A stretch of 64,000 nt of DNA from a bacterium (GCA_030432695.1 JAUILN010000010.1:114910-178909); one strand, 5' to 3'. Shown: positions 3,404 to 47,595, counted from the first letter of the stretch. The notes: generated by a model from the sequence alone, not told the origin. Program-made: numbers and translations.

Positions 3404-3407
3404 TCTA

Positions 3408-10199: not shown

Positions 10200-10239
10200 T
10201 CGGTACTCGCGCCGAGCCGGCGTCGCGCGTTGTCCGCCC

Positions 10240-11535: not shown

Positions 11536-11541
11536 TCGACG

Positions 11542-12992: not shown

Positions 12993-13492
12993 ACATGGCA
13001 AAGGCACTCAACCTGGCGCTGCAGGGCGACTTCCTGGAGACCCGGCTAGAGCCGGTCTACGAGGTCGCACGGGTGCGCAAGGGCACGGTCAAACTGCTGC
13101 ACCGCGAGTACATCGGACTCGGCGACGGGATCATGGCGTCGGTCGGCAAGGCCGCGAAGTCGTTCACGCTCACGCTGCGCGGCCCGGACCCGGTGTCGCC
13201 GGCGAATGTCGACGACGAGGGCTTCCGACCGATCCGTGGCACGCTGAGCCTGCTGGCCCGCAAACTCGACCTGGTGCAGGAGTTCGAGGACATGGTGCCG
13301 GGCTACGTCGAGCAGGCGCTGGACCGGCTGGAGAGCGTCGCGGTGATCGTCAACTGGCACCGCGACGAATGGCACATCGAGACCACCGTGGTCGGTCTCG
13401 ACGCCGTGCTCACGCCGGTCGGCGAAGACGAGGAGTCGCGGACGAAGCGCCTCGAGAACGCACCGCGCCGCCGCCGCGGCAAGAAGGGCTGA
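12993..13492 (+). CDS. Conserved hypothetical protein (may start at GTG 12833)
   Basis: Very strong GC3 bias and no internal stops. No family recognised. Coding bias continues upstream to a GTG at 12833. Confidence 0.6.
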
Positions 13493-13522
13493 GCGAGCGC
13501 ACTCTTCAGCGGCCTGCACACG

Positions 13523-15397: not shown

Positions 15398-15443
15398 GCC
15401 CCCCGTCGTATCCTCGCGGTCCGTCGAAGGCGACGATGACCCG

Positions 15444-16109: not shown

Positions 16110-16129
16110 CCGGACCGCGCCGGCATGCG

Positions 16130-22264: not shown

Positions 22265-22379
22265 CCACCGCTTCAGCGGCCCAGGACCCACCGCTTCAGC
22301 GGCCCAGGACCCACCGCTTCAGCGGCCCAGGACCCACCGCTTCAGCGGCCCAGGACCCACCGCTTCAGCGGCCGAGGAC
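22265..22379. repeat. 23-bp direct tandem repeat x5 (ccaccgcttcagcggcccaggac) in the intergenic region upstream of the Kelch gene
   Basis: Units at 22265, 22288, 22311, 22334 and 22357, the last with a G variant. Period is not a multiple of 3. Overlaps the stop of the 22365 gene. Confidence 0.85.
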
Positions 22380-23528
22380 CCATTGCTCTCCGGCGGTGTA
22401 GGAGAACGGGAAGGTCCCCTGCACCGAGTCGTCCACGACGAATCCCTGCCAGTAGATCAGCTCCGCGCAGAACGACAGCGACGCGGGCACCGGGACCTGC
22501 AGCGTCGAGACTCCCTGTGGATCGGTGACGCCGGTCAAGAAATCGAACTGGAGACCGCGTGGACCCGGCTGGATCAGGAAGGTCAGGTTGTCGACGACGG
22601 TGTTGGCGCGGTCGAAGCCGAACAACCAGATCACGAACGACCGCGGGCGGCCGAACGACAGTTCCAACTCGGCAGTCTCACCGATGCGCGGCAACGCCGA
22701 GGTGGCGATCTCCGGCACTCCGAGAACACCGGGCGCACCCTGGCCATAGGTGATCGACCGCGCCGCACCACACGGACCCGAATCGTGGTCGAGTCGCACC
22801 ACCAGAACGATCGGCAGGTCGGGCGGAACCGTCCGCTTCCAGCAGAAGCACGCGCTCTGGTCGCCGCGCAGCAGCGGGAGACCGGAGTTCGCGAGCCGCA
22901 GTCGACCGGGGTCGAGCAGCCCACATTCCGAGTCGCTGCTCGGCTGGACCTCCCAACGGTCGAGCTGGGTGGCGCGCACCCGCACCTGCTGCAAGGCGCA
23001 CTCGCCCACGATCGTCTGGTCGGGCCCGGAGCCGAAGGTCACGTCGGTCTCGGGGATGCAGGCATCGACATCCACGTAATGGAAGATCGTGATGCCGATC
23101 GGCTCGGAGGTGCGGTTGGTCAGCGTGAGCCGCGACTGCACCACGCCGGAAGCGCTACCGGTCGACAGGACCTCGATCCCCATCCGCGCACGCAGCCGGT
23201 CGCGGCCGCCGAGGTCGTCCCAGGCGAGATCGGCGCGTGGCCCGACGTAGGACTGCACCACGGTGCCGTCGTCGTGGAACGGCGTCTCCTCGGTCTCGTC
23301 GTCGAACCGGTACCACCAGCCCTGCTCGCGCAACACGTCGGGAGCGAACAGCGGATCGGCGGTGAAGTCGCAGTCCACCGTGTCGCCATCGGCACTCGGC
23401 AGCGCGTGGATGGTGTACTGGACGTTGCCGTCCTGGATGGTCCCCTGCGCATGGGCACAGGGGATCGCTACAGCGAGCCAGACGGCGAGCAGGACTGGCC
23501 TGGGGGTTCGAGCAGTCTCCTGGGACAT
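22365..23528 (-). CDS. Secreted hypothetical protein with a divergent copy of the shared C-terminal domain
   Basis: Signal peptide MSQETARTPRPVLLAVWLAVAIPCAHA. C-terminus LTGVTDPQGVSTLQVPVPASLSFCAELIYWQGF...WVLGR. The track ORF upstream of 23528 is spurious. Confidence 0.75.
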   Translation of the reverse strand: MSQETARTPRPVLLAVWLAVAIPCAHAQGTIQDGNVQYTIHALPSADGDTVDCDFTADPLFAPDVLREQGWWYRFDDETEETPFHDDGTVVQSYVGPRADLAWDDLGGRDRLRARMGIEVLSTGSASGVVQSRLTLTNRTSEPIGITIFHYVDVDACIPETDVTFGSGPDQTIVGECALQQVRVRATQLDRWEVQPSSDSECGLLDPGRLRLANSGLPLLRGDQSACFCWKRTVPPDLPIVLVVRLDHDSGPCGAARSITYGQGAPGVLGVPEIATSALPRIGETAELELSFGRPRSFVIWLFGFDRANTVVDNLTFLIQPGPRGLQFDFLTGVTDPQGVSTLQVPVPASLSFCAELIYWQGFVVDDSVQGTFPFSYTAGEQWVLGR

Positions 23529-23850: not shown

Positions 23851-24468
23851 TCATTCGGAACGCGCGGCCTCGAGCAACGCGATCCAGGCCCCGACGTAGT
23901 GGCCGTGGTCGTGGTAGGTCCTGCCGCTGACCAGGTTGCCGTCCACGACACACGGCGCGTCGACGAACACACCACCACAGACTTCGAGATCGAAGCGGCA
24001 CTTCGGTACCGTCGCCATCCTCCGACCCGCGACGCAGCCGGCCGCCGCCGGGATCTCGACGCCGTGGCAGACGCTCGCGATCGGCGCACTCCGCTCGAAG
24101 AAGCGCCGCGTGATGCGCAGCAGGTGCTCGTCGTAGCGGAGGTACTCCGGCGCTCGGCCACCCGAGAAGAAGATGCCCAGGTAGTCGTCGGGCTCGATCT
24201 CGGCGAACGCCACGTCGGCGTCGATCGTGTAGCCCTCGAACTCGCGCGTGACCTCCCAGCCCGCGGCGAGTTCGTGCAGCACCATGTGGTAGCGCTTGCG
24301 CTGCGGTGCGGCGACCACGGGCTGGAAGCCGGCCTCCTGGAGCCGATAGTACGGATACAGCGTGTCGACCGTCTCGGTGGCATCACCGACGACGATCAGG
24401 ACCTCGGACTTCGTGGCGGCGCTCACCCCGCCATCGAACGCGGCACGCGATACCGGCACAAGCTGCAC
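23851..24468 (-). CDS. DJ-1/PfpI family protein (class I glutamine amidotransferase-like)
   Basis: VLIVVGD...IASVCHG nucleophile Cys elbow. GTG start immediately follows the upstream gene's stop. Confidence 0.8.
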   Translation of the reverse strand: MQLVPVSRAAFDGGVSAATKSEVLIVVGDATETVDTLYPYYRLQEAGFQPVVAAPQRKRYHMVLHELAAGWEVTREFEGYTIDADVAFAEIEPDDYLGIFFSGGRAPEYLRYDEHLLRITRRFFERSAPIASVCHGVEIPAAAGCVAGRRMATVPKCRFDLEVCGGVFVDAPCVVDGNLVSGRTYHDHGHYVGAWIALLEAARSE

Positions 24469-24999
24469 TCACTTGTCCTGCGACGGGAAGCGGCCGGTGA
24501 TCCGACCCTCGGTGTCGTAGAACGTGAGCCGGCCCTCGTCCTTCCAGTACAGTACCGCGGCACCCTTGGACTCCCGGCCGTGCAGCGCGAAGCCCGCGCC
24601 GCCGTGCTCGAAGAGAGCGGCCCCGAGTCGCGTGACGCCCTCGGGGTCTTCCAGGTAGAGGCCTCCACCGTCGTCGGTCCAGAACAACCGTACGCGGCCG
24701 CGCTGCTGGTCGTCGAGGAGGCGCAGGACCGGGTCACCGTCCTCGAAACCGAGTCTCGCGCGGACCGAGCCTCCTCCGTCGACGAGTTCGAAGGCCGAGG
24801 CCCGCAAGACCTGCTGCGGTTCTCGCTGCGGGTCCACCGCAGCGGCCGCGGGATCCGGACTCGGGTCCTGCCGCCAGCCAGCCGCGGCGAGCAGCCCCAC
24901 GCTCAGGGTGACGATCCACAACGCGAGCGAACCACGCGCCAGCGTCTCGAGGCGACGCAGGCGACGGTCATCGATTGCCACGGTGTCGGAAGTGTCCAT
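24469..24999 (-). CDS. Hypothetical single-pass membrane protein
   Basis: TM helix LALWIVTLSVGLLAAAGW. Strong GC3. Contiguous with the PfpI gene, so probably co-transcribed. Confidence 0.6.
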   Translation of the reverse strand: MDTSDTVAIDDRRLRRLETLARGSLALWIVTLSVGLLAAAGWRQDPSPDPAAAAVDPQREPQQVLRASAFELVDGGGSVRARLGFEDGDPVLRLLDDQQRGRVRLFWTDDGGGLYLEDPEGVTRLGAALFEHGGAGFALHGRESKGAAVLYWKDEGRLTFYDTEGRITGRFPSQDK

Positions 25000-25142
25000 C
25001 CGGGAATCGGAAGGTCACGCACTCCGGCTGGCAATGTCCGTCCCCTCGATTCGCGGCGCCGGAACCGAGCCCTGGGATCGAAGGAGAGACCTGCGGAAAA
25101 GTCCGGCGAGCGTCGCGCCCCCTGGCGCATGACCACATTGCC

Positions 25143-26087
25143 ATGCTCAACACGAAGAAGTGGACCCTCCTCGCGGCCTCGACCGCATTCCTCGCCGTCA
25201 GCTCGACCGTGGGGGCGCAGGGGACGCCCGCGCGGTTCAACACCAACATCTGGTATCGCCTCCAGACCCAGTTCCAGGGACCCGGCAAGGCGCTCGACGT
25301 GATCAACGACGGCGTCAACAACGACCGTCTGCACATGGTCGATGTCGGCCCTTACAGCGGCCAGTACTGGCGGTTGACGCCGGTTCAGGGCTTCCCCGGT
25401 GCCTACCGGATCTCCTCGCTCTGGCAAGGCGAGAACCTGCCGATCGACATCATCAACGGCGGCCCGAACGACAACGAGCCCATCCTGGCTCCGTTCGGCT
25501 CCACCAACGGGCAGTTCTGGTGGATGTACGAGATCCTGCCTCAGGCGCCGGGCCATTACTGGATGACCACGGGCTTCCGCGGACCGAACATGGCACTGGA
25601 AGGTGCGGCCATCAACGGCAACCAACCGCGGCTCGACCCGCGCGGGTTGTTCTCCGGTCAGGCGTGGCGCTTCGTGCCGATCATCTCGATCGACCCGGCC
25701 AGGACCACGCCATTCGGCACCGGCTGCAATGCCGGCAGCGGCAATCTGACCCTGACCACGAACGACCCATGGGTCGGGGAACGCCTGACCGGCGCGGTGC
25801 GCAACCTGCCCGCCGATGCCCCGGCCTGCGAGCTGTTCTTCGGACTGCGCCTGAGCGCGCCGTTGCCGATCTACCAGTCCCCTGGATGCAGCCTGCTCGT
25901 CGATCCGGCCGTCCAGGTGACCCTGCCAGCCGTGAACGGCACCTGCACGATCGACCTGCCGATCCCAGGTGACTCCAACCTGGTCGGCGGAGTGCTGCCG
26001 ATCCAGGCCCTGGCGATCCGACCGCGCGGCGCCGCACCACGGATCCCGGCGACCAACGGCGTCGAGCTGAAGTTCGGGCTCCGCTGA
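25143..26087 (+). CDS. Secreted ricin-B-like (beta-trefoil) lectin with the shared C-terminal domain
   Basis: Signal peptide. Three QxW repeats (GQYWRL, GQFWWM, GQAWRF). C-terminus FGTGCNAG...SPGCSLLVDP...LPIPGDSNLVGGVLPIQALAIRP...KFGLR. Confidence 0.85.
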   Translation: MLNTKKWTLLAASTAFLAVSSTVGAQGTPARFNTNIWYRLQTQFQGPGKALDVINDGVNNDRLHMVDVGPYSGQYWRLTPVQGFPGAYRISSLWQGENLPIDIINGGPNDNEPILAPFGSTNGQFWWMYEILPQAPGHYWMTTGFRGPNMALEGAAINGNQPRLDPRGLFSGQAWRFVPIISIDPARTTPFGTGCNAGSGNLTLTTNDPWVGERLTGAVRNLPADAPACELFFGLRLSAPLPIYQSPGCSLLVDPAVQVTLPAVNGTCTIDLPIPGDSNLVGGVLPIQALAIRPRGAAPRIPATNGVELKFGLR

Positions 26088-26418
26088 AGGCAAACCCCAG
26101 TCCGGGCTCGATTCGCCTGGGAGGTCGGGTCACGGGACCCGTTCCGATCCAGTGCGTGCCAAGACTCCAGAAACACGAGTGCTCAGCTCGAAGCCGCGAA
26201 TCCCAGCCGAATCGGTGGATTGGGCGAGCCTGCGCACCGAGGAGCACTGTACGGGGAGATCCTGGGTGCGAGGGCGCGTGCTGGGCGGAACGGTCTGCCG
26301 TGACACGGCCTCCCAGGGCCGGGGTGCACGCCGCCCCGTCCACGCGACCGCGCCACGCCGCATCGCGAGAGCCTCGGATCTGTGCACCCACTCTCGGCCC
26401 CTGGGCTACCATCCCTGC

Positions 26419-27204
26419 GTGACTGCACCACTCGACGACAGCCCGGTCGCTCCGGACATGGTGGAACGGCTCCGCAGCTTGGCTCCTTGGCATATGGACC
26501 TCGTGCTGCGGTGCGGCACACGGACGGTAGCCGGCAACCTGTGCAACTACGCGGAAGCCGACCACGAACACGTGATCGCGATCGACCCCGACGAGCTTCG
26601 CTCGACGCTCGAACACCTCTACCCCGAGGGCCTGGCTGGCAGGAGCTTCCTCGACGTCGGCTGCAATGCGGGCGGCTACAGCTTCCTCGCCCGGAGCCTC
26701 GGCGCGAGCCGGACCCTCGGCTTCGACGTCCGCGAGCACTGGATCAGGCAGGCCCGCTTCGTTGGCGAACACTGGGATGGTGACACCTCCAACATGCGCT
26801 TCGAGGTCGCCCACATCCATGACGTCGACCTGAGCGACGGCTTCGACCTGACGCTGTTCAAGGGCGTGTTCTACCACCTGCCGGCGCCGATCCACGCGCT
26901 GCTGCGGCTGTGCGACGCGACCCGCGACGTGATCATCGTGGACACGGCCTCACGTAGCGACATCCCCGAGAACGCGCTCGTCACCAACTTCGAGAGCCGT
27001 AGCCACGTGATGTCGGGTGTCGATGGCCTGGCGTGGATGCCCGGCGGACCTCGCGCGGTGATCGACATCCTGACCCACGCGGGTTTCCAGGACTGCCACG
27101 TCGCCTTCTGGCTGAAGGAACTGGCAATGGGTCCGCGCCCGGAGCTGGGTCGGTTCCGGGTGATCGCCGCGCGGCAACCAGGGCGTCTGGCGGCACCGAG
27201 CTGA
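26419..27204 (+). CDS. Class I SAM-dependent methyltransferase
   Basis: Motif I FLDVGCNAGGYSF. Start is GTG 26419 or ATG 26458. The region upstream in the track ORF has AT-rich third positions. Confidence 0.75.
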   Translation: MTAPLDDSPVAPDMVERLRSLAPWHMDLVLRCGTRTVAGNLCNYAEADHEHVIAIDPDELRSTLEHLYPEGLAGRSFLDVGCNAGGYSFLARSLGASRTLGFDVREHWIRQARFVGEHWDGDTSNMRFEVAHIHDVDLSDGFDLTLFKGVFYHLPAPIHALLRLCDATRDVIIVDTASRSDIPENALVTNFESRSHVMSGVDGLAWMPGGPRAVIDILTHAGFQDCHVAFWLKELAMGPRPELGRFRVIAARQPGRLAAPS

Positions 27205-27235
27205 GGATCACGGACCGCGGTGGCAGAATCCTCGC

Positions 27236-30200
27236 ATGGATTCCCGGACCGCGGCGAACCGGGCCTCGATGACCGACTCGAATCCGCTCGACAGACGCTT
27301 CGCCGCCTTCGTACGAACCGGCGATCCCGACCACCTCGCCGCGGTCTTCGACGTGGCGGCGCCGAGGCTGCTGCTGGTGGCGATGCACCTCACCCGCGAC
27401 GTCGCGGAGGCCGAGGACCTGGTGCAGACCACGTTCCTGGAGGCGATCCGCGGTGCGGACCGCTTCGAGGCAGGGCGATCGGTGCTGCCCTGGCTGGTGA
27501 CGATCCTGAGCAGGCGGGCGCAGGACGCGCGGCGACGGCGGCGCGCCGCTGGTGCGGCCGACGAACCCGCGGCCGACGCAGCGGAGCCTCTGGCCGCGCT
27601 CGCGCACGAGGAGACGCTGCGCGCCGTCTCGCAAGCCCTCGACGGACTGCCCGCCCACTACCACGAGGTCGTGAGCCTGCGCTTCGTGCACGGGCTCAAA
27701 GTGGTCGAGATCGCCCGGGCGCTGCGCCGTCCGGTGGGCACGGTGCAGGCGCAGTTGCATCGGGGGTTGGCGATGCTACGGCGAGCGCTGCCGAAGAGCG
27801 TGGCGCTGTCGATGGCGGCGCTGTTGGCGGGGACCGAGCGCGGGCTGGCAGCGGTGCGAACGGAGGTGCTGCGAGCTGCGGGCGCCGGACTGGTCGCCTC
27901 GACCGCGTTCGGCAAGCTCGTGATGTTGGGACTGCTCGTACTCGCCACTGGCGTAGGGTTGTGGTGGATGCTGCCGAGCAGCGCGGCCCCGTCGCAGCTG
28001 CAGGATCGGTCCGCAGCGGCAGGCCCGATCTTCGAAGAGTCGGATCCGCGCGAAGAGCAGCGCATCGCGGTGGCGTCTTCTGGCAGCACCGCTCCGGTGC
28101 ACGAGCGCACCGGCGATCCGGAACCCGCGGCCGACGATCCGAACGTGGTGCGCTTCTCGGGGCGCGTGGTCGCGGCGGAGTCGGGGGAGCCGCTCGAGGG
28201 GGTGGAGATGTGGTTCCGGCAGAGCTGGACCAACCAGGACTACACCTACATCTTCGGGGACGGCCGCTACTGGTTGGTCGAGGACCACTTCGTCACCGGC
28301 ACGGACGGGCGGTTCGCATTCGCCGCGCGTCTGCTCCACGAGACCGGATACCAGCTCAACATGCAGGCCGACCGGCGGATCGGCCGATCGGGGTCCATCA
28401 CGAGGCTCACCGACCCCCTCCATGCCGACTTCGGCGACGTCGCGCTCCACCGTGGCACGCGCGTCACCGGCCGCATACGGAACCGGAACGGCGAAGGGAT
28501 CGAAGCCGGCCTGCACGCCGAAGCCCCGCTCCCGGAACTCCGAGGGCTGCCCGGGCTCGACGGATTCGACCTGATCGGGATCGCGTGGTCGGACGACGAC
28601 GGCCGCATCCGCGAGGGCCACACGACCGCCGCGGGAACGTGGCGACTCCTGTCGACCAGCGGTGAGGTGCTCGAACCGCGCGAGATCGTGGTGCGCGAAG
28701 GCCAGGATCACATCGACCTGAGCGTCCGCCTCGCCACCGCCGGGCCGATCGCCGAACTCGCCGGTCGCGTGATCGATCGCGCGGGCAACCCGGTCGCGAG
28801 GCAAGCAGTGCGCGCCTGGTTCCCTGGATCCGAAGACGCCTTCGACTCCGACTCGACGGACGAGGCCGGCCGATTCGTGATCACGGCGCGGCGCGAGGAA
28901 CAGCTGCAGCCGTTCCACCTCGGGTTGGCGAAGGGCAGGATCTTCTCGCGCTTCGCGGGTGGCGCTCCGGAACGGCTGTGGAACTGGAACGGGAGCGAGC
29001 CCGTGTTGACCGCGCAGCCGGCGTCGACGACCGACCTCGTGGTCGTCGATGCAGCCGGCACACCGATCGAGTCCTTCGGCCTCTGGCTGAAGGCCTCCGA
29101 CGAGCGGCGCTCGTGCTATGCCCACTTCGGCCACCATTCCGAGGGTCGACTCTCCTTGCCTGGACTGACCGACGACGTGCTCTCGCTCACGGTGATCCCC
29201 GAGCGGCGCGACCTCCGCTTCGCCACGATCCACCCCACCGCGGAACCGCAACCGCGTGACTGCGACGTCGCTCTCGTCCGCGGATCACCGCTCGAGATCG
29301 CCCTGCGCAGTGAGAATCGTCCCGTCTCCGGCGCGGACGTGGCGATGACCAGAGTCTCCCCCGTACTTCGCTACCTGAGTGACGACTCGACGGCTCCGCT
29401 CGCGGACGCGCGCGCCTGGTTCCAGACCGGCATCGGCTCCGGAGGCCAGTTCGTCTTCGACGACCGAGCGACCAGCGACGCTTCGGGAAGGGCGACCCTG
29501 TTCGTCGACTCCCGGTGGGAGCCCGAAGAAGGCGAGTTCGCACTCGTGATCCAACACCTCACCCACGAGAGCCAGGTGGTGCCACTCAGCGCCGAGCAGA
29601 TCGTCACCGGACGCGTGGAGGTCGAACTCGTGGCCGGCGGGGCGATCCTCGGCAGGGTCGTGCAACCCGACCTCGCCGGACGCTTCGCGGATCGGGTCGG
29701 CGCCGGCCGGCAACGAGACGATGGGACCTTCAGCCGTCCAGAACACGGTGGCCCGCGGAACACGCCGGCGTGGTGGGCCGAAAGCCCGATCGCCGCAGAT
29801 GGGTCGTTCGAGTTCCGGGGACTGCCGCCGGGCCGCTGGAGGCTCTCGCTGGAGCGGCACGGCCGCAACTTCGTCCACCCGGACATGCCGATCCTCGACA
29901 TCGAAGCGGGCGACACGACGACGGCGATCCTCGATCCGACCTCCCTGGCACCCGCCACGGTGCGCCTCCACGTCACCTTGGATGGACGACCCGCTCCGGA
30001 AGGCCGCTACGCATCCCTGACCCTCCTCGAAGACCACCCCCTCCTGAACCTCACCAGCCTCGACTCCGAGAAGTTCGACCGCGACGGATCCGTGTGCTTC
30101 CTCGACGTGCCAGCCGGATCCTACGCGCTGTTCAGCGGCGGCGTCGTCAACGGCGTCAACGACCACCGCTACTCGGCAGACGTGATCGTGGTCGCGCCGG

Positions 30201-30484
30201 GTCACGATGTGGAACAGCGCGTCGACCTCCCGCGACGCCGGCTGACCCTGGACCTCCGCGCTGCCGACGGGTCACCCACCGGGCTGTGGTCCGGCGCACG
30301 CTACACGGGCGGCGCACACCCCGACATCGGCCCCGACGGCAGGACCTTCGCTCCGCTCCCCGGCTTCGACGGCGTCACCCTCCACCTCCCCCGCCCCGAC
30401 GGCGGCGCCCCCCTCGTCCTCGGCCCCTTCCGGATCCCGGACGGCCAGACCACCCACCACCAGATCGTCCAACTCCCCGACTGA
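27236..30484 (+). CDS. ECF sigma-70 factor fused to a transmembrane segment and large extracytoplasmic beta-sandwich domain (one-component transmembrane sigma factor)
   Basis: Region 2 DLVQTTFLEAIRGADRF. Region 4 HTH YHEVVSLRFVHGLKVVEIARALRRPVGTVQAQLHRGL. TM helix FGKLVMLGLLVLATGVGLWWML. About 850 aa of carboxypeptidase-regulatory-like repeats (FSGRVVAAESGEPLEGVEMW). Single uninterrupted ORF. Confidence 0.8.
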   Translation: MDSRTAANRASMTDSNPLDRRFAAFVRTGDPDHLAAVFDVAAPRLLLVAMHLTRDVAEAEDLVQTTFLEAIRGADRFEAGRSVLPWLVTILSRRAQDARRRRRAAGAADEPAADAAEPLAALAHEETLRAVSQALDGLPAHYHEVVSLRFVHGLKVVEIARALRRPVGTVQAQLHRGLAMLRRALPKSVALSMAALLAGTERGLAAVRTEVLRAAGAGLVASTAFGKLVMLGLLVLATGVGLWWMLPSSAAPSQLQDRSAAAGPIFEESDPREEQRIAVASSGSTAPVHERTGDPEPAADDPNVVRFSGRVVAAESGEPLEGVEMWFRQSWTNQDYTYIFGDGRYWLVEDHFVTGTDGRFAFAARLLHETGYQLNMQADRRIGRSGSITRLTDPLHADFGDVALHRGTRVTGRIRNRNGEGIEAGLHAEAPLPELRGLPGLDGFDLIGIAWSDDDGRIREGHTTAAGTWRLLSTSGEVLEPREIVVREGQDHIDLSVRLATAGPIAELAGRVIDRAGNPVARQAVRAWFPGSEDAFDSDSTDEAGRFVITARREEQLQPFHLGLAKGRIFSRFAGGAPERLWNWNGSEPVLTAQPASTTDLVVVDAAGTPIESFGLWLKASDERRSCYAHFGHHSEGRLSLPGLTDDVLSLTVIPERRDLRFATIHPTAEPQPRDCDVALVRGSPLEIALRSENRPVSGADVAMTRVSPVLRYLSDDSTAPLADARAWFQTGIGSGGQFVFDDRATSDASGRATLFVDSRWEPEEGEFALVIQHLTHESQVVPLSAEQIVTGRVEVELVAGGAILGRVVQPDLAGRFADRVGAGRQRDDGTFSRPEHGGPRNTPAWWAESPIAADGSFEFRGLPPGRWRLSLERHGRNFVHPDMPILDIEAGDTTTAILDPTSLAPATVRLHVTLDGRPAPEGRYASLTLLEDHPLLNLTSLDSEKFDRDGSVCFLDVPAGSYALFSGGVVNGVNDHRYSADVIVVAPGHDVEQRVDLPRRRLTLDLRAADGSPTGLWSGARYTGGAHPDIGPDGRTFAPLPGFDGVTLHLPRPDGGAPLVLGPFRIPDGQTTHHQIVQLPD

Positions 30485-30565
30485 CCGAACCCGCGCGTGT
30501 CCCTCTCGCCCCCCGGGTGAATAATCCGGGCCGGGCCGATCACTCGGCCCAGCACGGAGCCGCAC

Positions 30566-31120
30566 ATGGACACGCTGTTCTTCTACATGGCCGTCGTCGG
30601 CGGGACCTTCCTCGCCATCCAGACCCTGATGCTGGTCCTCGGCATCGGGGTCGACGCCGACGTCGACGTCGATTCGGACTTCGACATCGACGCCGACCAC
30701 GGCGACTCCACCATCCTCAAGAAGCTGTCGCTGCAGGCGATCGTCGCCTTCGTGACCTTCTTCGGGCTCACCGGCCTGGCGATGCGCCATGCCGAGATCG
30801 GCATCGGCGCAGCCTCGGCTGGCGCGGTCGCCGCTGGCGTCGGCGCGATCTGGGTGGTCGGCTCGCTGATGGCGTCGCTCGCGAAGCTGCAGTCGAAGGG
30901 CAACCTCGACCTGCAGAACGCGGTCGGCCAGCGCGCGCGGGTCTACGTGAAGATCCCGAGCGCCGACGCCGGCACCGGCCTGGTCCACGTCGCGGTGCAG
31001 GGCCGCCGCGCCGAGTGCAAGGCGCGCACTGCCGGGCCCGAGATCCCCAGCGGCGCCGAGGTCCAGGTGCTGAGCGTCGCCGCCGATGGCGTGCTCGAGG
31101 TCGCGCTACAAGCTTCCTGA
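30566..31120 (+). CDS. NfeD-like membrane protein (YuaF-type, flotillin-associated)
   Basis: N-terminal TM helices, C-terminal OB-fold-like beta domain. Immediately upstream of the flotillin gene, matching the yuaF-floT arrangement. Confidence 0.7.
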   Translation: MDTLFFYMAVVGGTFLAIQTLMLVLGIGVDADVDVDSDFDIDADHGDSTILKKLSLQAIVAFVTFFGLTGLAMRHAEIGIGAASAGAVAAGVGAIWVVGSLMASLAKLQSKGNLDLQNAVGQRARVYVKIPSADAGTGLVHVAVQGRRAECKARTAGPEIPSGAEVQVLSVAADGVLEVALQAS

Positions 31121-31168
31121 CCGGCCGCCACTCCCCCACACGTCCCCTCGAAGGAGAGTCCCCAGTCG

Positions 31169-32833
31169 ATGCCCGACAATCCGTTCCTGACCTTTCTGGC
31201 GATCGCGGCCACCGCGATCGTCTTCGGCTTCCTGGTCCTCATCGTCAAACGCTACAAGCGCTGCCCCTCGAACCGGATCCTGGTGATCTACGGCAAGGTG
31301 CAGGAAGGTCGCTCGGCGCGCTGCCTGCATGGTGGCGGCGCGTTCGTGTGGCCGCTGATCCAGGACTACGAGTACCTGTCGCTGGATCCGATGCAGATCG
31401 AGATCCCGCTGCGGGGTGCACTCTCGAGCGAGAACATCCGCGTCAACGTGCCGAGCGTGTTCACGGTCGCCGTAGGCACCGAAGAAAGCGTGATGCAGAG
31501 CGCTGCCGAGCGCCTGCTCGGACTGAAGACCGGCGAGATCATCAAGCAGGCCGAGGACATCATCTTCGGCCAGCTCCGCCAGGTGATCGCGTCGATGGCG
31601 ATCGAGGACATCAACCGCGACCGCGACAAGTTCCTCGAGAGCATCCACAGCTCGTTGGCGCCGGAGCTCGAGAAGATCGGTCTGGTGCTGCTCAACGTGA
31701 ACATCACCGACATCACCGACGAGTCGGGCTACATCGAGGCGATCGGTCGGAAGGCCGCCAGCGAGGCGATCCAGCAGGCCGAGATCGACGTCGCGCAGCA
31801 GCAGAAGCATGGTGCGATCGGCGTCGCCGAAGCCAACCGTGAACAGATGATCATGGTCGCGCAGGCCGAGAAGGCTCGCGAGATCGGCACCAAGGAGGCC
31901 GAGCGCGACAAGCTGGTGCGGATCGCCGACATGCAGCGCGAGACCGAGGTCGGCCAGCAGACCGCGATGCTCCAGCAGCAGGCGCAGATCGCCGACGCCG
32001 AGCGGCAGAAGCGCGTCCAGGTCGCCGAGGCCAACGCCCACGCGGTCACCGGCGAGAACGAGGCCAAGAAGACCATCGCCGACACCAACGCGGCACTGCG
32101 GGTCCGTGAGGCCGAGGCGTTCCAGCTCGCCGAGACCCGCCACCGCGAGGCCGATGCGGCGGTCCGCGAGGCCCAGTACATCGCCGAAGCGCGCGCCGCC
32201 GAGGCACTGGCGCAGAAGATCGAGAAGGAGAAGCGCGCCGAACTCGAGGCGGTCGCCAAGGCCGAGAAGGCCAAGCAGATCGTCGACGCCGAGGCGGCCG
32301 CGGAGAAGGTGCGGATCGATGCCAACGCGCGGGCCGCGGCGACCTTCGCCCAGCTCGAGGCCGAGGCGCGCGGTGAGTACGAGATGCTGGCCAAGAAGGC
32401 GGATGGTCTGGAGCGGATCGTCCAGGGCTGCGGTGGCGCGCAGCAGGCCTTCCAGATGCTGATGCTCGAGCAGCTTCCCAAGCTGTCCGAGACCGCCGCA
32501 CAGGCGATCTCCAACATCCGCTTCGACAAGATCGTCGTCTGGGACAACGGCCAGGGCGGCAAGGACGGGCAGGGCGGCACGGCCGGCTTCCTGCGCGGTC
32601 TGGCCGGCGCGCTGCCGCCGATGCTCCACATGATGAAGGACGTCGGCGGCGTCGAGATGCCGGAGTTCCTCGGCAAGTTGGTCGGCCCGGACAGCGCCGC
32701 CGACGACGAGGAGACCTCGACTCTCGCCGAGGCAGGAGACGAGGCCGGTTCGAGCGGCTCGAAGGGGCGATCCTCAGCGCAGCGCGGCAAGCAGGCCAAG
32801 CGCGGAAGCAGTGACGGCGGAGCCGCCGGCTGA
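31169..32833 (+). CDS. floT: Flotillin (SPFH/band 7 family, FloT/YuaG-like)
   Basis: N-terminal TM segment, SPFH domain, and a long Ala/Glu-rich coiled coil (EAERDKLVRIADMQRETEVGQQTAMLQQQAQIADAERQKR...). Confidence 0.85.
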   Translation: MPDNPFLTFLAIAATAIVFGFLVLIVKRYKRCPSNRILVIYGKVQEGRSARCLHGGGAFVWPLIQDYEYLSLDPMQIEIPLRGALSSENIRVNVPSVFTVAVGTEESVMQSAAERLLGLKTGEIIKQAEDIIFGQLRQVIASMAIEDINRDRDKFLESIHSSLAPELEKIGLVLLNVNITDITDESGYIEAIGRKAASEAIQQAEIDVAQQQKHGAIGVAEANREQMIMVAQAEKAREIGTKEAERDKLVRIADMQRETEVGQQTAMLQQQAQIADAERQKRVQVAEANAHAVTGENEAKKTIADTNAALRVREAEAFQLAETRHREADAAVREAQYIAEARAAEALAQKIEKEKRAELEAVAKAEKAKQIVDAEAAAEKVRIDANARAAATFAQLEAEARGEYEMLAKKADGLERIVQGCGGAQQAFQMLMLEQLPKLSETAAQAISNIRFDKIVVWDNGQGGKDGQGGTAGFLRGLAGALPPMLHMMKDVGGVEMPEFLGKLVGPDSAADDEETSTLAEAGDEAGSSGSKGRSSAQRGKQAKRGSSDGGAAG

Positions 32834-32932
32834 GGCCGGAGTCGGAACCACGCGCGGGGCGACGACCGGAAAACGCGGCGTGCGCCGGCCCGCCCCCTGG
32901 ATGCGGACCGCGGCAGGTCTTCAGATCTCTGC

Positions 32933-34003
32933 ATGCTCCGTCGACTCCGCTCCGCTCCCGCCGCCCTCTCCGTGTCCGTGCTGCTGTGCGCGCTGCCGGC
33001 AGTGCCGGGCCAGGACGATCAGGCCCCCGAGGCCGGTGCCGTATCACTCGCGGAGGAGACCGCGCCGAACGACGAGAGCCCTTGGCTCACCCTCCGCGGC
33101 ACCGACGACTCCGCACTCGGCGCCGGCCGCCACGTCGTGTTCGTCACTGGCGACGAGGAGTACCGCTCCGAAGAGGGCATGCCGCAGATCGCCAGGATCC
33201 TGGCCCATCGCCACGGCTTCGACTGCACCGTCCTGTTCGCGGTCGACCCGGAGACCGGCGCCTTCGACCCGAACCACCAGGAGCACATCCCCGGTCTCGA
33301 AGCCCTCGACGACGCCGACCTGATGGTGGTGTTCACGCGCTTCCGGGATCTGCCCGACGAGCAGATGGCGCACTTCGTCGACTACGTCGAATCAGGCCGC
33401 CCCTTGCTCGGCCTGCGCACCGCCACCCACGCCTTCGACATCCGCGAAGACTCCACCTACCGCCGCTGGTCGTGGCGCAATCCGGAATGGGAGGGCGGCT
33501 TCGGCCGGCAGGTCCTCGGCGAGACCTGGATCGCCCATCACGGCGGACACGGCAGCGAGAGCACCCGTGGGCGCATCCCGGAAGATGCCGCCGAGCACGC
33601 CATCCTGCGTGGCATCGACGACGGCGCGGTCTGGGACCCGTCGGACGTGTATCGGGTGCGACTGCCGCTCCCCGAAGGCTGCGAGACCCTGCTGTTCGGC
33701 GAGGTGGTCGCCGGCATGTCGCCCACCGACGACGCGGTCGAAGGCCCCAAGAACGATCCGATGATGCCCGTCGCCTGGGTGCGCGAGCGGACGGTCGAAG
33801 CCGCCGAGGCCCCGCAGCGGGTGTTCGCGACCACCATCGGTGCGTCGCAGGCCTTCGCGCAGGAGGCCAGCCGCCGCCTGGTCGTCAACGCCTGCCTGTG
33901 GGCCATGGGCCTCGACGACCGGATCTCCGCCGACCTCGACGTGCGCCTGGTGGGCGACTACCAGCCGACGCGCTTCGGCTTCCGCCGCCCGAAGAAGGAC
34001 TGA
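32933..34003 (+). CDS. Secreted ThuA-like protein (class I glutamine amidotransferase-like fold)
   Basis: Signal peptide. ThuA-family motifs PVAWVRE...RVFATTIGAS and RRLVVNACLWAMG. Confidence 0.7.
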   Translation: MLRRLRSAPAALSVSVLLCALPAVPGQDDQAPEAGAVSLAEETAPNDESPWLTLRGTDDSALGAGRHVVFVTGDEEYRSEEGMPQIARILAHRHGFDCTVLFAVDPETGAFDPNHQEHIPGLEALDDADLMVVFTRFRDLPDEQMAHFVDYVESGRPLLGLRTATHAFDIREDSTYRRWSWRNPEWEGGFGRQVLGETWIAHHGGHGSESTRGRIPEDAAEHAILRGIDDGAVWDPSDVYRVRLPLPEGCETLLFGEVVAGMSPTDDAVEGPKNDPMMPVAWVRERTVEAAEAPQRVFATTIGASQAFAQEASRRLVVNACLWAMGLDDRISADLDVRLVGDYQPTRFGFRRPKKD

Positions 34004-34016
34004 CCGCGCGCCGGCG

Positions 34017-35894
34017 TCAGTTCCTCTCGAGAACCCAGACCCAGTCGTTCCAGGTCGGGCTCGGCGCCGCCGGGACATTGCGGATGCCGCCACCCCAACG
34101 GGCCTCGGCCGCCCCCTCGAACACCCCGTCCCGCGGATTGAACCAGCGGCCGACGAAGCGCGCGTCACTCGGCTCCTGCCGCAGGTCGATGCGACCGGTC
34201 GTGGTCGCCTCCGGGTAGTAGACCAGATAGACGGATCCCGGCAGCCCGAAGACCTCGGCCTCACCGTAGTTGGAATGGACGGTCTCGTTGGTGACCAGGC
34301 CGTCCGCGGGAAGCATCAGCGGGAACGGGTACCGCTCCAGCAAGCTGCGGGCGTGCCGAGACTGCCGCCACATCGTGTCGCGCGAGCGAAAGTCCTCGAG
34401 GCGGATGTCGCCACCACCGTCCAGGACCGAGTAGTAGCCGCAGTACCACGACAGGTTGCCGCCCGACAACAGCACGTCCCAGAGCACCTTGCGGCGCATC
34501 TCGGCGTGGTTCGAACGCGACAGACCGATCAGCGCCGGACCCTGCTCGTCGACGTCGACGATCGCGTGGCGCCGGAACTGCTCGAACAGCTCGTGCGCCG
34601 CCTCGGTCGCCGGGTTGTAGTCGGCCCGATTGATCTGCAACGAGGCCGAGGTCAGCCACGACGAGTCGTTGGCGTTGGTGAGGATCTGCCGGTAGATGCT
34701 CTGGTCGTCCGGATCGGTGTGCACCGCCATCGGATGCTCGAACGACTGCCAGCGGCGGATCCACTGCGCGATCGCCTCGAGCTCGTTCACGGTGAACTGC
34801 GTGGTCGGCTCGGGCGCGTTCTCCTCGCAGAGGATCCACCGCAGCCCGGGATGGTGACCGAACATCGCCACCATCATCTTGAGGTAGAGCCGCCGCTGGA
34901 CCGACTGGGCTCCACCGAGCCAACTGATGTTCTCCAGCTCCCGCTCCGCCAGCACGAACTCCAGCAGGATGCCGAGCCGCTGCGCGTGCTCGAACACGGT
35001 GTCCCACTGCTCCATCCGGCCGACGTCGTAGTGGGTGACCTTGCCGAACTCGCTGCCGCTCGGATCGACGAAGGGGAACACGTCCTGACCGTCGCCCCCC
35101 AGGTTGTTGGCAAGGAAGTAGACCGAGTTCACCCCCACGTCGTGCAGGTAGTTGAGCGCGCCGACGATGCCCCGGCCGGCGTGAGGGTCCCCTCCGGACC
35201 GCCACTCGGGATCGCCCGGCCGCCAATCGGCCACGTGGTTCGGGTAGTCGTGCAGGAAGGTCTCGCCCAACGGGATGTTGCCCGAGTCGAACGCGCCATC
35301 GAAGCCGCTGTACGCCAGCAGGTTCTCGGGGCTATTGGTCCCGGTCTTCAGGAACCAGGTGCCATCGCGGTGACGTAGGTAGCGAGCGCCGACCGCCTCC
35401 AGCGGGCCATGTCGATGGAAGCCGGTCGCGGCGGGGTCCGGCATCGTCACCTGGAACAGCTGGATCTCGCCGTGCGGAGCGAGCGGCGTGCCCGGAGTCG
35501 CCAGTCCGGCGACGTTGAGGCGCGGCCCCTTCTCGAAGGACACGACCATCGCCCACTGACCGACCTCGTCGGGCGTGAACCGGACCTTCCAGACGCTGCC
35601 GGCATCTCCGCCGAGGCCGTCCGCGGCATAGAACCCGGGCGTGTTCAGGACGCGTCCGCTCGGCGAGACGAACCATCCATGCATCCTGTAGTCGAGGAAC
35701 GGGTGGTCGGGCGACGCGGTGGTCTCCGACAGTCCACCGGGCGCGCGCGCGGCGGTGGAGTAGGCGAATTCGATCGGTTGGAACGCTGCGACGAGTCGAT
35801 GCACGGCGCGACGCGGGCCAGGGTTCACCTGGGCGTCGACGGGGGAGAGGAGCATCGGCACGCCGAAGATCCCGAGGAGGATCGCGGTGCGCAT
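34017..35894 (-). CDS. Secreted putative glycoside hydrolase (DUF5060 N-domain plus DUF4038/GH140-like TIM barrel)
   Basis: Signal peptide MRTAILLGIFGVPMLLSPVDA. Domain architecture resembles GH140 apiosidase-like proteins. The track ORF upstream of 35894 is spurious. Confidence 0.6.
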   Translation of the reverse strand: MRTAILLGIFGVPMLLSPVDAQVNPGPRRAVHRLVAAFQPIEFAYSTAARAPGGLSETTASPDHPFLDYRMHGWFVSPSGRVLNTPGFYAADGLGGDAGSVWKVRFTPDEVGQWAMVVSFEKGPRLNVAGLATPGTPLAPHGEIQLFQVTMPDPAATGFHRHGPLEAVGARYLRHRDGTWFLKTGTNSPENLLAYSGFDGAFDSGNIPLGETFLHDYPNHVADWRPGDPEWRSGGDPHAGRGIVGALNYLHDVGVNSVYFLANNLGGDGQDVFPFVDPSGSEFGKVTHYDVGRMEQWDTVFEHAQRLGILLEFVLAERELENISWLGGAQSVQRRLYLKMMVAMFGHHPGLRWILCEENAPEPTTQFTVNELEAIAQWIRRWQSFEHPMAVHTDPDDQSIYRQILTNANDSSWLTSASLQINRADYNPATEAAHELFEQFRRHAIVDVDEQGPALIGLSRSNHAEMRRKVLWDVLLSGGNLSWYCGYYSVLDGGGDIRLEDFRSRDTMWRQSRHARSLLERYPFPLMLPADGLVTNETVHSNYGEAEVFGLPGSVYLVYYPEATTTGRIDLRQEPSDARFVGRWFNPRDGVFEGAAEARWGGGIRNVPAAPSPTWNDWVWVLERN

Positions 35895-41104: not shown

Positions 41105-41140
41105 CGACCAGGATGCTACGGCCCGCGCTATCCTGCCGCC

Positions 41141-47592: not shown

Positions 47593-47595
47593 GGC

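What the first reader, a model, noticed from the sequence alone, without database searches (positions are those of the whole stretch)
27236..30484. 1082-aa ECF sigma factor fused to a transmembrane helix and ~850-aa extracytoplasmic beta-sandwich array
One continuous ORF carries sigma-70 regions 2 and 4 (ECF-type) at the N-terminus, then a hydrophobic helix and a long extracytoplasmic region with carboxypeptidase-regulatory-like repeats. This could be a one-component transmembrane sigma factor, with the anti-sigma and sensor functions fused in cis. ECFs with long C-terminal extensions are known mainly from Planctomycetes, but this domain composition is unusual. It lies immediately upstream of an NfeD-flotillin operon.
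Basis: partly seen in the sequence, partly recalled or inferred. Interest (0 to 1): 0.7.

Follow-up and report, generated by a model that had tools for sequence, protein, structure and literature searches.

The report
Membrane-tethered ECF sigma factor family
This is a real planctomycete gene in which an ECF sigma factor is joined, through one membrane-spanning helix, to a long external chain of beta-sandwich domains; it belongs to a multi-copy family that probably signals by being cut loose from the membrane, a design known from a few other bacteria.

Summary
ORF 27236-30484 (+) is one coherent 1082-aa gene: a complete ECF sigma core (sigma2 42-103, sigma4 129-181), a conserved ~38-aa linker, one TM helix (~226-246), a disordered acidic spacer, and a ~780-aa all-beta region with at least six related transthyretin/CarboxypepD_reg-like units. 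It is not an assembly artefact: about 20 full-length relatives share the same colinear layout, and about 40 sigma-TM fusions occur in Planctomycetota loci. These often lie in clusters, such as four tandem genes in cultured Rohdeia mirabilis. "Anti-sigma fused in cis" is not supported: there is no room for an anti-sigma domain, the linker has no Cys, and no Pfam or PDB match lies beyond residue ~189. The same ectodomain is more often found alone on a signal anchor (80 versus 44 of 150 representatives). No anti-sigma gene is adjacent and neighbourhoods vary. The NfeD-flotillin adjacency is not conserved, and no ECF-type promoter was found. The best reading, by analogy with IutY and not shown here, is a one-component transmembrane signaller whose sigma domain is released by regulated proteolysis. 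It is a new variant of a known kind and of moderate interest.

The parts
27236..30484 (+). Whole gene: 1082-aa ECF sigma - linker - TM - spacer - beta-sandwich array (stop codon 30482-30484)
   Evidence: ORF; coherent GC3 frame; full-length homologs of 1061-1116 aa at 27-39% identity
27359..27544 (+). Sigma-70 region 2 (residues 42-103)
   Evidence: Pfam PF04542, 52.2 bits; AF2 pLDDT 82-92; mean pairwise identity in the family 0.70; PDB matches to SigW/SigH/SigK/SigE
27620..27796 (+). Sigma-70 region 4 (residues 129-187), with recognition helix PVGTVQAQLHRG
   Evidence: Pfam PF08281, 44.2 bits, and PF04545, 28 bits; family identity 0.63; minority subtype of recognition helix shared with P0002, P0006 and P0007
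27797..27907 (+). Conserved post-sigma4 linker (residues 188-224; motif GL.AVR..VL.AA); cytoplasmic, predicted helical, function unknown
   Evidence: Family identity 0.49, higher than the TM (0.26) or the ectodomain (0.33); AF2 helices 187-199 and 201-216 at pLDDT ~50; no Pfam or PDB match; no Cys
27911..27973 (+). Single transmembrane helix (residues ~226-246), N-in/C-out
   Evidence: Kyte-Doolittle 2.16, the only such segment; present 35-59 residues after sigma4 in all but one of the 32 full-length planctomycete relatives of 813 aa or more; positive-inside bias, N flank +1.4 net and C flank -0.4
27974..28144 (+). Juxtamembrane spacer (residues 247-303): acidic, Pro/Ala/Ser-rich, poorly conserved, probably disordered; candidate site-1 cleavage region (inferred)
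   Evidence: Net charge -7; pLDDT 24-45; family identity 0.21; 70% P/A/S/G/T/D/E
28145..30481 (+). Extracytoplasmic array of ~8 beta-sandwich units (residues 304-1082), at least six of them related to one another
   Evidence: All-beta AF2 model; Foldseek hits to tandem beta-sandwich proteins (TIE, alpha2-macroglobulin MG domains, pilins, SdrD); HHalign between units D1-D4, D6 and D7 at 86-97% probability; CarboxypepD_reg 41.4 bits
26152..27204 (+). Context only: SAM-dependent methyltransferase ending 32 nt upstream (its start codon is uncertain); possibly co-transcribed; not conserved next to relatives
   Evidence: Pfam Methyltransf_31/9/25; no homolog in related loci
30566..32833 (+). Context only: NfeD-like gene (30566-31120) and flotillin/SPFH gene (31169-32833), same strand, 81 nt downstream; no evidence that they belong to the system
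   Evidence: Band_7 105.6 bits, NfeD 14.8 bits and below cut-off; adjacency absent from planctomycete relatives; no ECF-type promoter

Best explanation
The gene encodes a membrane-tethered ECF sigma factor, that is, a one-component transmembrane signal transducer. Shown: a complete sigma2-sigma4 core sits in the cytoplasm. It is joined by a conserved ~38-residue linker to a single N-in/C-out TM helix. Outside the membrane a disordered acidic spacer leads to a ~780-residue string of about eight transthyretin/CarboxypepD_reg-like beta-sandwiches. It belongs to a Planctomycetota-restricted, multi-copy and fast-diversifying family, probably of the Saltatorellus/Rohdeia clade. In that family the sigma-linker-TM module is conserved and the ectodomain varies. 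The family has no partner anti-sigma gene. Inferred: while tethered, the sigma domain is kept away from RNA polymerase or promoters. An envelope or surface cue acting on the ectodomain exposes the spacer to a periplasmic site-1 protease. A site-2 (RseP-type) intramembrane protease then cuts the TM helix. The freed ~22-25 kDa sigma domain binds core RNAP and turns on its regulon. This is the mechanism demonstrated for Pseudomonas putida IutY and proposed for actinobacterial ECF52. The regulon and the signal are unknown.
For: The gene and its architecture are real. The fusion is conserved colinearly in ~20 full-length homologs at 27-39% identity. Of 38 planctomycete sigma hits in the loci of the genome scan (L001-L034 and L042) that read through to a stop codon, 36 are 813-1198 aa, and 31 of the 32 that are 813 aa or longer have a TM 35-59 aa after sigma4; hits from other phyla are plain ECFs of 179-284 aa. 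Sigma2 and sigma4 are the most conserved parts (0.70 and 0.63) and match solved, functional ECFs over their whole length. This indicates that the sigma domain is under selection to work as a sigma. No anti-sigma, FecR, zf-HC2 or RskA domain is found in the protein or within about +/-10 kb here, or in four other annotated neighbourhoods. Topology fits N-in/C-out. A ~55-aa disordered spacer lies next to the membrane. In IutY the periplasmic part must be trimmed to ~50 residues before RseP acts. Experimental precedent for sigma-TM-periplasmic-domain proteins activated by Prc then RseP comes from PMC5411451, and the ECF48/52/53 proposal from PMC8999054 and PMC5826349.
Against: No cleavage, protease or released fragment can be seen from sequence, so the mechanism rests on analogy. 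No site-2 protease or PDZ protease gene is linked to the locus. No autoregulatory ECF promoter was found upstream of 48 family genes, so the usual ECF signature of positive autoregulation is missing. The conserved linker (0.49 identity) is not explained by a pure tether model. The same ectodomain exists more often without any sigma domain (80 versus 44 of 150 representatives), so its primary role may be structural rather than sensory. Pinto and da Fonseca (PMC7671368) argue that some planctomycetal ECF extensions arose by fortuitous insertion and question whether they regulate anything.
Confidence: 0.55

Rival explanations
1. It works without being cut. The sigma domain recruits RNA polymerase to promoters while still anchored in the membrane, as ToxR, CadC or TcpP do as transcription factors. 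The ectodomain would modulate activity through oligomerisation or conformational change passed through the conserved linker.
For: The linker between sigma4 and the TM is more conserved (0.49) than the TM (0.26) or the ectodomain (0.33). A signal-transmitting element might be expected to look like this. No protease genes are linked to the locus.
Against: A ~38-residue linker gives little reach for a sigma factor that must dock on core RNAP and then on DNA. No membrane-bound functional sigma is described in the papers found. The only tested analogue, IutY, needs RseP cleavage to become active.
Confidence: 0.15
2. Processing is constitutive, not signal-dependent. The hydrophobic segment acts as an internal export signal for the beta-sandwich protein. 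The leftover sigma-TM stub is cleared by signal-peptide or site-2 proteases, so sigma release simply reports how much of the exported protein is being made or inserted.
For: The same ectodomain, with the same kind of spacer, is normally made as a stand-alone protein behind a plain N-terminal hydrophobic anchor with only 5-20 cytoplasmic residues. The fusion therefore looks like a sigma domain placed in front of an export signal.
Against: No clear AXA-type signal-peptidase site follows the hydrophobic segment, either in the fusions or in the stand-alone proteins. Conservation of many diverged paralogs per genome fits diversified inputs better than a simple dosage reporter.
Confidence: 0.1
3. 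It is an evolutionary accident with no regulatory role. A duplicated sigma2-sigma4 cassette landed in front of a gene for a membrane-anchored beta-sandwich protein (the 'fortuitous insertion' model), and one of the two halves is functionally irrelevant.
For: This model was proposed for planctomycetal ECFs with very large and unrelated extensions (PMC7671368). The stand-alone ectodomain genes that could have served as recipients exist and outnumber the fusions.
Against: The fusion is kept intact and colinear across homologs down to 27% identity, with both halves in frame and under purifying selection. The sigma-linker-TM module recurs in ~40 genes. Fortuitous insertion may explain how it arose, but not why it has been kept.
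Confidence: 0.08
4. The sigma factor's main job is to control the adjacent NfeD-flotillin operon, as a membrane-stress module comparable to sigmaW control of the floT and floA operons in Bacillus subtilis (own knowledge).
For: The genes are on the same strand with an 81-nt gap and no terminator-like site. Two Latescibacterota loci have PspA, then a short ECF, then NfeD and flotillin.
Against: None of the planctomycete relatives examined has NfeD or flotillin within 8-10 kb, nor on the 0.8 kb held downstream of the closest one, P0002. The Latescibacterota operon is preceded by a sigma70-type TTGACA/TATCAT promoter, not an ECF-type one. No AAC-N16/17-CGT motif lies upstream of the window's NfeD gene.
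Confidence: 0.1
5. It is an assembly or sequencing artefact: a frameshift or lost stop codon has joined a sigma gene to a downstream anti-sigma or sensor gene.
For: None was found. Long spurious ORFs are common at 70% GC.
Against: The GC3 signal is continuous across the junction. Identical architecture is found in dozens of independent assemblies, including a finished genome. The stand-alone ectodomain proteins start at their own anchor and have no cytoplasmic anti-sigma part.
Confidence: 0.02

Closest known systems
IutY of Pseudomonas putida (sigma/anti-sigma hybrid of the FecI-FecR cell-surface signalling type; ECF243)
   Same: One polypeptide with a cytosolic ECF sigma domain, a single TM segment close behind sigma4 and a periplasmic domain. 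There is no separate anti-sigma gene. IutY is activated by removal of the periplasmic part (Prc) followed by intramembrane cleavage (RseP), which releases a ~23 kDa sigma (PMC5411451).
   Different: IutY is 374 aa, has a FecR-type periplasmic domain and works with an adjacent TonB-dependent receptor (IutA). The window protein is 1082 aa and has a ~780-aa beta-sandwich array, with no FecR domain and no receptor gene nearby. Its sigma core scores only at ECF-superfamily level. IutY is described as unique in its genome, whereas this is a multi-copy family.
ECF52 (SCO4117 of Streptomyces coelicolor), and ECF48/ECF53
   Same: An ECF sigma with a long C-terminal extension containing TM helix(es), a Pro-rich extracytoplasmic spacer and an extracellular binding-type domain. 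Release by proteolysis has been proposed.
   Different: ECF52 has a zinc-finger (ZAS, PF13490) anti-sigma domain between sigma4 and the TM, and a carbohydrate-binding module, and it is exclusive to Actinobacteria. Here there is no zinc finger (no Cys in residues 1-305; no Pfam hit) and no CBM, and the lineage is Planctomycetota.
Planctomycetal ECFs with large C-terminal extensions (ECF01-Gob / ECF57; Pinto and da Fonseca's duplicated clusters)
   Same: Same phylum, several copies per genome, very large C-terminal extensions and no anti-sigma partner.
   Different: ECF57 is characterised by WD40-like repeats and two conserved cysteines linking sigma2 and sigma4. The window protein has neither. 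In the published duplicated clusters the extensions are unrelated to one another. Here the extension aligns colinearly across the core subfamily.
Canonical ECF sigma plus single-pass anti-sigma factor activated by regulated intramembrane proteolysis (RpoE-RseA, SigW-RsiW, SigV-RsiV)
   Same: A cytoplasmic ECF sigma held at the membrane, an extracytoplasmic sensing part, and presumed sequential site-1 and site-2 proteolysis. The sigma core is most similar to SigW, SigH, SigK and SigE among solved structures.
   Different: There, the sigma is held non-covalently by a ~80-90-residue anti-sigma domain on a separate protein. Here the link is covalent and no anti-sigma domain is detectable.
Stand-alone signal-anchored beta-sandwich array proteins of the same lineage (e.g. 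P0036, P0058)
   Same: The same colinear ectodomain and the same kind of low-complexity juxtamembrane spacer. One such gene lies head-to-head with a sigma-fusion gene.
   Different: They have only 5-20 cytoplasmic residues, with no sigma domain and no conserved linker.

Membership tests
ECF (group 4) sigma-70 family | Sigma region 2 and region 4 present and complete; regions 1.1 and 3 absent | tested here: met
   PF04542 covers model positions 6-69 of 71 and PF08281 covers 2-54 of 54, both above their cut-offs, and no r3 or r1 hit appears. TIGR02937 scores 77.9 bits against a cut-off of 42.9. PDB matches to SigW, SigH, SigK and SigE span residues 25-185.
Named ECF subfamilies in NCBIfam (TIGR02983 SigE-fam_strep, TIGR02989 Rhodopirellula/Verrucomicrobium, TIGR02984 Planctomycetaceae subfamily 1, SigW, SigK and others) | Score at or above the curated cut-off of the subfamily model | tested here: not met
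   The best scores are 88.5 against 141.55, 60.9 against 124.55 and 59.7 against 183.75. All others are also far below their cut-offs.
ECF Hub groups (Casas-Pastor 2021 classification) | Assignment by the group-specific HMMs of the sigma2-sigma4 core | not testable with these tools
   The group HMMs and Supplementary Text S2 are not available here. The main text names no group with one TM plus a beta-sandwich array.
IutY-type sigma/anti-sigma hybrid (cell-surface signalling) | Sigma domain, single TM and periplasmic domain in one polypeptide | tested here: met
IutY-type sigma/anti-sigma hybrid (cell-surface signalling) | FecR-type periplasmic domain and an adjacent TonB-dependent transducer | tested here: not met
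   No FecR or STN/TonB-receptor domain is found in the protein or its neighbours.
IutY-type sigma/anti-sigma hybrid (cell-surface signalling) | Activation by site-1 (Prc) and site-2 (RseP) proteolysis | not testable with these tools
   This needs protein-level experiments. The only relevant sequence feature is a disordered ~55-aa spacer next to the TM.
ECF52 (SCO4117 type) | Zinc-finger (ZAS, PF13490) domain between sigma4 and the TM; carbohydrate-binding module; Actinobacteria only | tested here: not met
   Residues 1-305 have no Cys. Pfam finds nothing at E<=10 in the linker region. No CBM is found. The family is confined to Planctomycetota.
ECF57 / ECF01-Gob (planctomycetal ECFs with extensions) | WD40-like repeats in the extension; two conserved cysteines linking sigma2 and sigma4 | tested here: not met
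   There is no WD40 hit and no cysteine in the sigma core.
Fused class I anti-sigma domain | A ~80-90-residue helical anti-sigma domain on the cytoplasmic side of the TM | tested here: not met
   Only ~38 residues lie between sigma4 and the TM here, and 35-59 in all but one of the relatives that have a TM. There is no Pfam or PDB match. A short CnrY-like (class II) element cannot be excluded by these tests.
CarboxypepD_reg / transthyretin-like beta-sandwich repeats | Repeated ~90-100-residue beta-sandwich units detectable by profile and by fold | tested here: met
   PF13620 scores 41.4 bits against a cut-off of 32.3 (summed; no single stretch is significant). Relatives score up to 147 bits. 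The AF2 model is all-beta. Foldseek hits tandem beta-sandwich proteins. HHalign between units gives 86-97% probability.
NfeD-flotillin operon (context) | An SPFH/Band_7 flotillin preceded by an NfeD-family membrane protein | tested here: inconclusive
   Band_7 is clear (105.6 bits), and FloT scores 160.9 against a cut-off of 700. NfeD scores 14.8 bits, below its cut-off of 29.1. The NfeD-like ORF is 28% identical to the equivalent ORF in L040.

The most novel reading that the evidence does not exclude
The family could be a repertoire of sigma-tethered surface receptors peculiar to the Saltatorellus/Rohdeia lineage. Many paralogs per genome, some in tandem arrays, have fast-diverging beta-sandwich ectodomains. 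All carry nearly the same sigma2/sigma4 promoter-recognition determinants, in just two sigma4 helix subtypes. Many different envelope or surface cues would then converge, by direct proteolytic release of a sigma domain, on one or two shared regulons. The more numerous sigma-less paralogs would act as partners, decoys or targets. That would be a signalling logic not described for ECFs. It could bear on the unusual cell-surface behaviour reported for this lineage (shape-shifting, aggregation, extracellular matrix).
Probability: 0.2. Interest if true: 0.7.

Novelty: new variant of a known kind. Interest (0 to 1): 0.4.

Why it matters
ECF sigma factors are usually controlled by a separate anti-sigma protein. 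Covalent sigma-TM-sensor proteins have been tested experimentally in only one case (IutY) and partly in a second (SCO4117). A lineage in which this design is the rule would be useful: dozens of paralogs, no anti-sigma domain and a modular beta-sandwich ectodomain. It would be a natural system for asking whether membrane tethering alone is enough to silence a sigma factor. It would also let one ask how site-2 proteases recognise such substrates, and how extension-bearing ECFs in Planctomycetes arise and are kept. The stand-alone ectodomain genes look like the recipients that the 'fortuitous insertion' model requires. A compact single-protein sensor-to-sigma switch could also have uses in synthetic biology. 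None of this changes a textbook concept. The value lies in extending a known but poorly sampled class.

Tried and rejected
1. An exact-sequence look-up of the window protein on contigs found nothing. The cluster look-up gave no accession or name, so the source organism is inferred only from relatives and from hallmark genes.
2. A self-BLAST of the ectodomain found no internal repeats. Profile-profile comparison was needed to see them.
3. A spaced-dyad search (4-mer, N15-18, 3-mer) on 48 upstream regions of family genes gave nothing widely shared. The best motif occurred in 5 of 48, and the most frequent dyad among the 25 top-ranked in 13 of 48, against counts of 26-33 for the commonest dyad in the shuffled sets. 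The idea of autoregulation through a recognisable ECF promoter was dropped for lack of evidence.
4. A regex search for GAAC/AAC-N15-18-CGT near the sigma and NfeD starts found nothing. The consensus promoter and terminator scan of 24000-34500 found nothing useful.
5. I tested the idea that NfeD-flotillin is a conserved partner and rejected it. The Latescibacterota ECF-NfeD-flotillin loci have a sigma70-type promoter.
6. I tested the idea that the ~850-aa ectodomain-only proteins are the unfused anti-sigma factors and rejected it, because they have no cytoplasmic domain.
7. A Foldseek search against AFDB50 was not possible because the library is unavailable. The PDB search gave only generic tandem beta-sandwich and ECF hits.
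8. Model coordinates are not exposed. I could therefore not test whether the linker helices pack on sigma2 or sigma4.
9. Wiegand et al. 2020, Jogler et al. 2012 and the supplements of Casas-Pastor et al. 2021 are not held. Whether this family already has an ECF group number is unresolved.


Full report

Yes. ORF 27236..30484 on the + strand starts with ATG and encodes 1082 aa. The window is ~70% G+C, and long spurious ORFs are common at that composition, so I checked the frame directly. GC at the third codon position is 0.86 overall and stays at 0.78-0.98 in every 150-nt window, including the sigma/TM junction. There is no switch to another frame. The antisense and off-frame ORFs that overlap it fail the same test.

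Pfam finds Sigma70_r2 at residues 42-103 (52.2 bits) and Sigma70_r4_2 at 129-181 (44.2 bits), both nearly full length. CarboxypepD_reg passes its whole-protein cut-off (41.4 against 32.3 bits), though no single repeat is significant. NCBIfam places the N-terminus in the ECF superfamily: TIGR02937 scores 77.9 bits against a cut-off of 42.9. Every named subfamily model scores far below its cut-off. There is one strong hydrophobic segment, at residues ~226-246.

**2. Is the fusion an artefact?**

No. A search of 5.8 billion proteins returned 35 relatives. About 20 of them are 1061-1116 aa and align with the query over 85-99% of its length at 27-39% identity, with the same Pfam content. They align colinearly from the sigma core to the C-terminus.

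A scan of one genome per species found relatives only in Planctomycetota among the fused forms. In the 35 planctomycete loci of that scan (L001-L034 and L042), 38 sigma hits read through to their own stop codon and four more are cut by a locus edge. Of the 38, 36 are 813-1198 aa and two are shorter (444 and 509 aa). Among the 32 hits of 813 aa or more, all but one have a hydrophobic segment 35-59 residues after sigma4, with almost no Cys or His in between. Hits from other phyla are ordinary ECFs of 179-284 aa.

The finished genome of the cultured *Rohdeia mirabilis* Pla163 carries four such genes in tandem, of 1088-1111 aa, each with r2, r4 and CarboxypepD_reg. The window itself carries planctomycete hallmark genes: PSCyt1/PSCyt2/PSD1 next to DUF1501, plus FG-GAP and Kelch genes. 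Its G+C content matches the 70.5% reported for *Rohdeia*. The source is therefore most likely a member of the deep-branching Saltatorellus/Rohdeia lineage, which is reported to be particularly rich in ECFs.

**3. Anatomy**

| Region | Residues | Evidence |
|---|---|---|
| Sigma2 | 42-103 | AF2 pLDDT 80-92 |
| Sigma4 | 129-187 | AF2 pLDDT 80-92 |
| Post-sigma4 linker | 188-224 | Predicted helical but low confidence; motif GL.AVR..VL.AA |
| TM helix | ~226-246 | Only strong hydrophobic segment |
| Spacer | 247-303 | Acidic, net charge -7; Pro/Ala/Ser-rich; pLDDT 24-45 |
| Ectodomain | 304-1082 | All-beta |

Foldseek against the PDB matches the C-terminal part only to generic tandem beta-sandwich proteins: *B. 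anthracis* TIE, alpha2-macroglobulin MG domains, Gram-positive pilins and SdrD. It matches the N-terminus to SigW, SigH and AlgU.

I cut the family alignment into eight putative units and compared their profiles. D1-D4, D6 and D7 are related to one another at 86-97% HHalign probability, directly or through D2 (D3 and D4 do not match each other directly). This makes it a true repeat array. D5 and D8 are divergent.

Charge flanking the TM fits N-in/C-out across the family. Mean pairwise identity by region is:

| Region | Mean pairwise identity |
|---|---|
| Sigma2 | 0.70 |
| Sigma4 | 0.63 |
| Post-sigma4 linker | 0.49 |
| Ectodomain | 0.33 |
| TM | 0.26 |
| Spacer | 0.21 |

The window protein shares a minority sigma4 recognition helix (PVGTV[QH]AQLHRG) with P0002, P0006 and P0007. 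Most members have PPATVRTRLRRG.

**4. Is an anti-sigma function fused in cis?**

There is no evidence for one.
- The ~38 residues between sigma4 and the TM are too few for a class I anti-sigma domain.
- Residues 1-305 contain no cysteine, so a zinc-finger (ZAS) element is excluded.
- Pfam finds nothing in the linker, TM or spacer of four family members, even at E<=10.
- All matches to solved structures end at residues 185-189.

A short class II (CnrY-like) element cannot be ruled out, and the conservation of the linker remains unexplained.

**5. The ectodomain also exists on its own**

A search of 1.84 billion cluster representatives with residues 301-1082 alone gave 208 hits at E<=1e-3 and 63 at E<=1e-10. 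Of the best 150:

| Class | Count | Median length |
|---|---|---|
| Carry the sigma domain | 44 | 1055 aa |
| No sigma domain, N-terminal hydrophobic anchor | 80 | 864 aa |
| Fragments or other | 26 | 737 aa |

. The stand-alone proteins have only 5-20 residues before the anchor, followed by the same kind of spacer and the same colinear array. They are therefore not anti-sigma factors that lack a partner. One of them is encoded head-to-head with a sigma-fusion gene in three assemblies, and another has no sigma neighbour.

This is the raw material required by the 'duplication and fortuitous insertion' model proposed for planctomycetal ECF extensions. In contrast to that model's unrelated extensions, however, the fusion here has been kept intact through deep divergence.

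**6. Genomic context**

Within ~10 kb on either side there is no anti-sigma gene and no site-2 or PDZ protease gene. There is no second paralog anywhere in the window. The neighbourhoods of four other members share nothing consistent and contain no anti-sigma domain. Paralogs often cluster, with two to five per locus.

The NfeD-like and flotillin genes downstream are real, but the adjacency is not conserved in any planctomycete relative. Two Latescibacterota loci do have PspA, a short ECF, NfeD and flotillin in that order. There, however, the flotillin operon is preceded by a sigma70-type promoter. I found no ECF-type motif upstream of the sigma gene, of NfeD, or shared among 48 family genes.

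**7. Mechanism**

The architecture, the topology, the selection on the sigma core and the lack of a partner are shown. How the protein is activated is inferred.

The best-supported model is the one demonstrated for *P. putida* IutY. IutY is a 374-aa protein with a cytosolic sigma domain, one TM and a periplasmic domain. Prc trims the periplasmic part to ~50 residues, and RseP then cuts in or near the TM, which releases an active ~23 kDa sigma. The same model has been proposed for the actinobacterial groups ECF48, ECF52 and ECF53. The disordered ~55-residue spacer next to the membrane is a plausible place for site-1 attack.

I give this model about 0.55. The rivals are:
- function while still tethered (0.15);
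- constitutive, export-coupled processing (0.10);
- a dedicated regulator of the flotillin operon (0.10; this is compatible with any of the activation modes);
- a retained but functionless accident (0.08);
- an assembly artefact (0.02).

**8. Comparison with what is known, and novelty**

ECFs with C-terminal extensions are the second most common regulatory type, at 19 groups. Planctomycetal ECFs with extensions up to ten times the size of the sigma core have been noted. Sigma-TM-sensor hybrids are known.

This protein fails the defining features of each named group that I could test:
- no FecR domain and no TonB-dependent receptor, as IutY has;
- no zinc finger, no CBM and not from Actinobacteria, as ECF52 requires;
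- no WD40 repeats and no conserved cysteines, as ECF57 has.

It works like those proteins without being a member of their groups. I found no paper describing an ECF joined to a CarboxypepD_reg-type array. I could not read Wiegand et al. 2020, Jogler et al. 2012 or the supplementary group descriptions of the 2021 reclassification. Those works analysed *Rohdeia* and its relatives and defined about 30 new planctomycetal groups. The family may therefore already have a group number.

My verdict is a new variant of a known kind. It is real and well supported as an object. Its mechanism rests on analogy, and it is of moderate interest.

Noticed in passing
L017 (Rohdeia mirabilis Pla163, CP036290) 3005-16692: Four consecutive same-strand genes of 1088-1111 aa all have the sigma r2 + r4 + CarboxypepD_reg architecture. 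A fifth ORF rich in CarboxypepD_reg (9-2657) is cut by the locus edge. Similar clusters of 2-3 paralogs occur in L001, L005, L012, L028, L088 and L089.
   Followed up: partly
L083 2721-8516 (the same arrangement occurs in L084 and L085): A stand-alone ectodomain gene (P0058, 844 aa, no sigma domain) lies head-to-head with a 1013-aa sigma-fusion gene, separated by ~220 bp. It may be a target or a partner. Only two stand-alone contexts were examined.
   Followed up: partly
L040 8103-12823 and L041 (Latescibacterota): The gene order is PspA-like, then a short ECF sigma (193 aa), then NfeD-like, then flotillin. A textbook sigma70-type promoter (TTGACA ... TATCAT) sits between the sigma and NfeD genes. 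An ECF-flotillin adjacency therefore recurs outside Planctomycetota, but without an ECF-type promoter.
   Followed up: partly
window 20764-22146 (-); L087 6262-7809; L083 1248-2684; L081 3212-6043: Kelch-repeat beta-propeller genes recur next to or near sigma-fusion or stand-alone ectodomain genes, head-to-head in L087. This could be chance in genomes rich in such repeat proteins.
   Followed up: no
window 36994-41740 (-): This looks like an operon of an FHA-domain plus trypsin-like peptidase protein (696 aa), a histidine kinase (428 aa) and a sigma54-dependent response regulator (458 aa). The pairing of an FHA-protease with a two-component system is unusual.
   Followed up: no
window 46147-50019 (-): A PSCyt1/PSCyt2/PSD1 (DUF1549/DUF1553) protein lies next to a DUF1501 protein. 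This is the gene pair typical of Planctomycetes and supports the taxonomic assignment of the window.
   Followed up: no
alignment A1, residues ~165-177 of the window protein (window ~27728-27766): There are two subtypes of the sigma4 recognition helix in the family. PVGTV[QH]AQLHRG is found in the window protein, P0002, P0006 and P0007, and PPATVRTRLRRG in most others. This hints at two different -35 specificities.
   Followed up: no
window 239-1240 (-): An ORF shows a borderline match to the IS200-like Y1 transposase family (23 bits, exactly at the cut-off).
   Followed up: no
window 24975-26087 (+) and 22365-23399 (-): Two probable secreted proteins with signal-peptide-like N-termini have no Pfam match. 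The first has a weak relative next to a sigma-fusion gene in L031 (25% identity).
   Followed up: no
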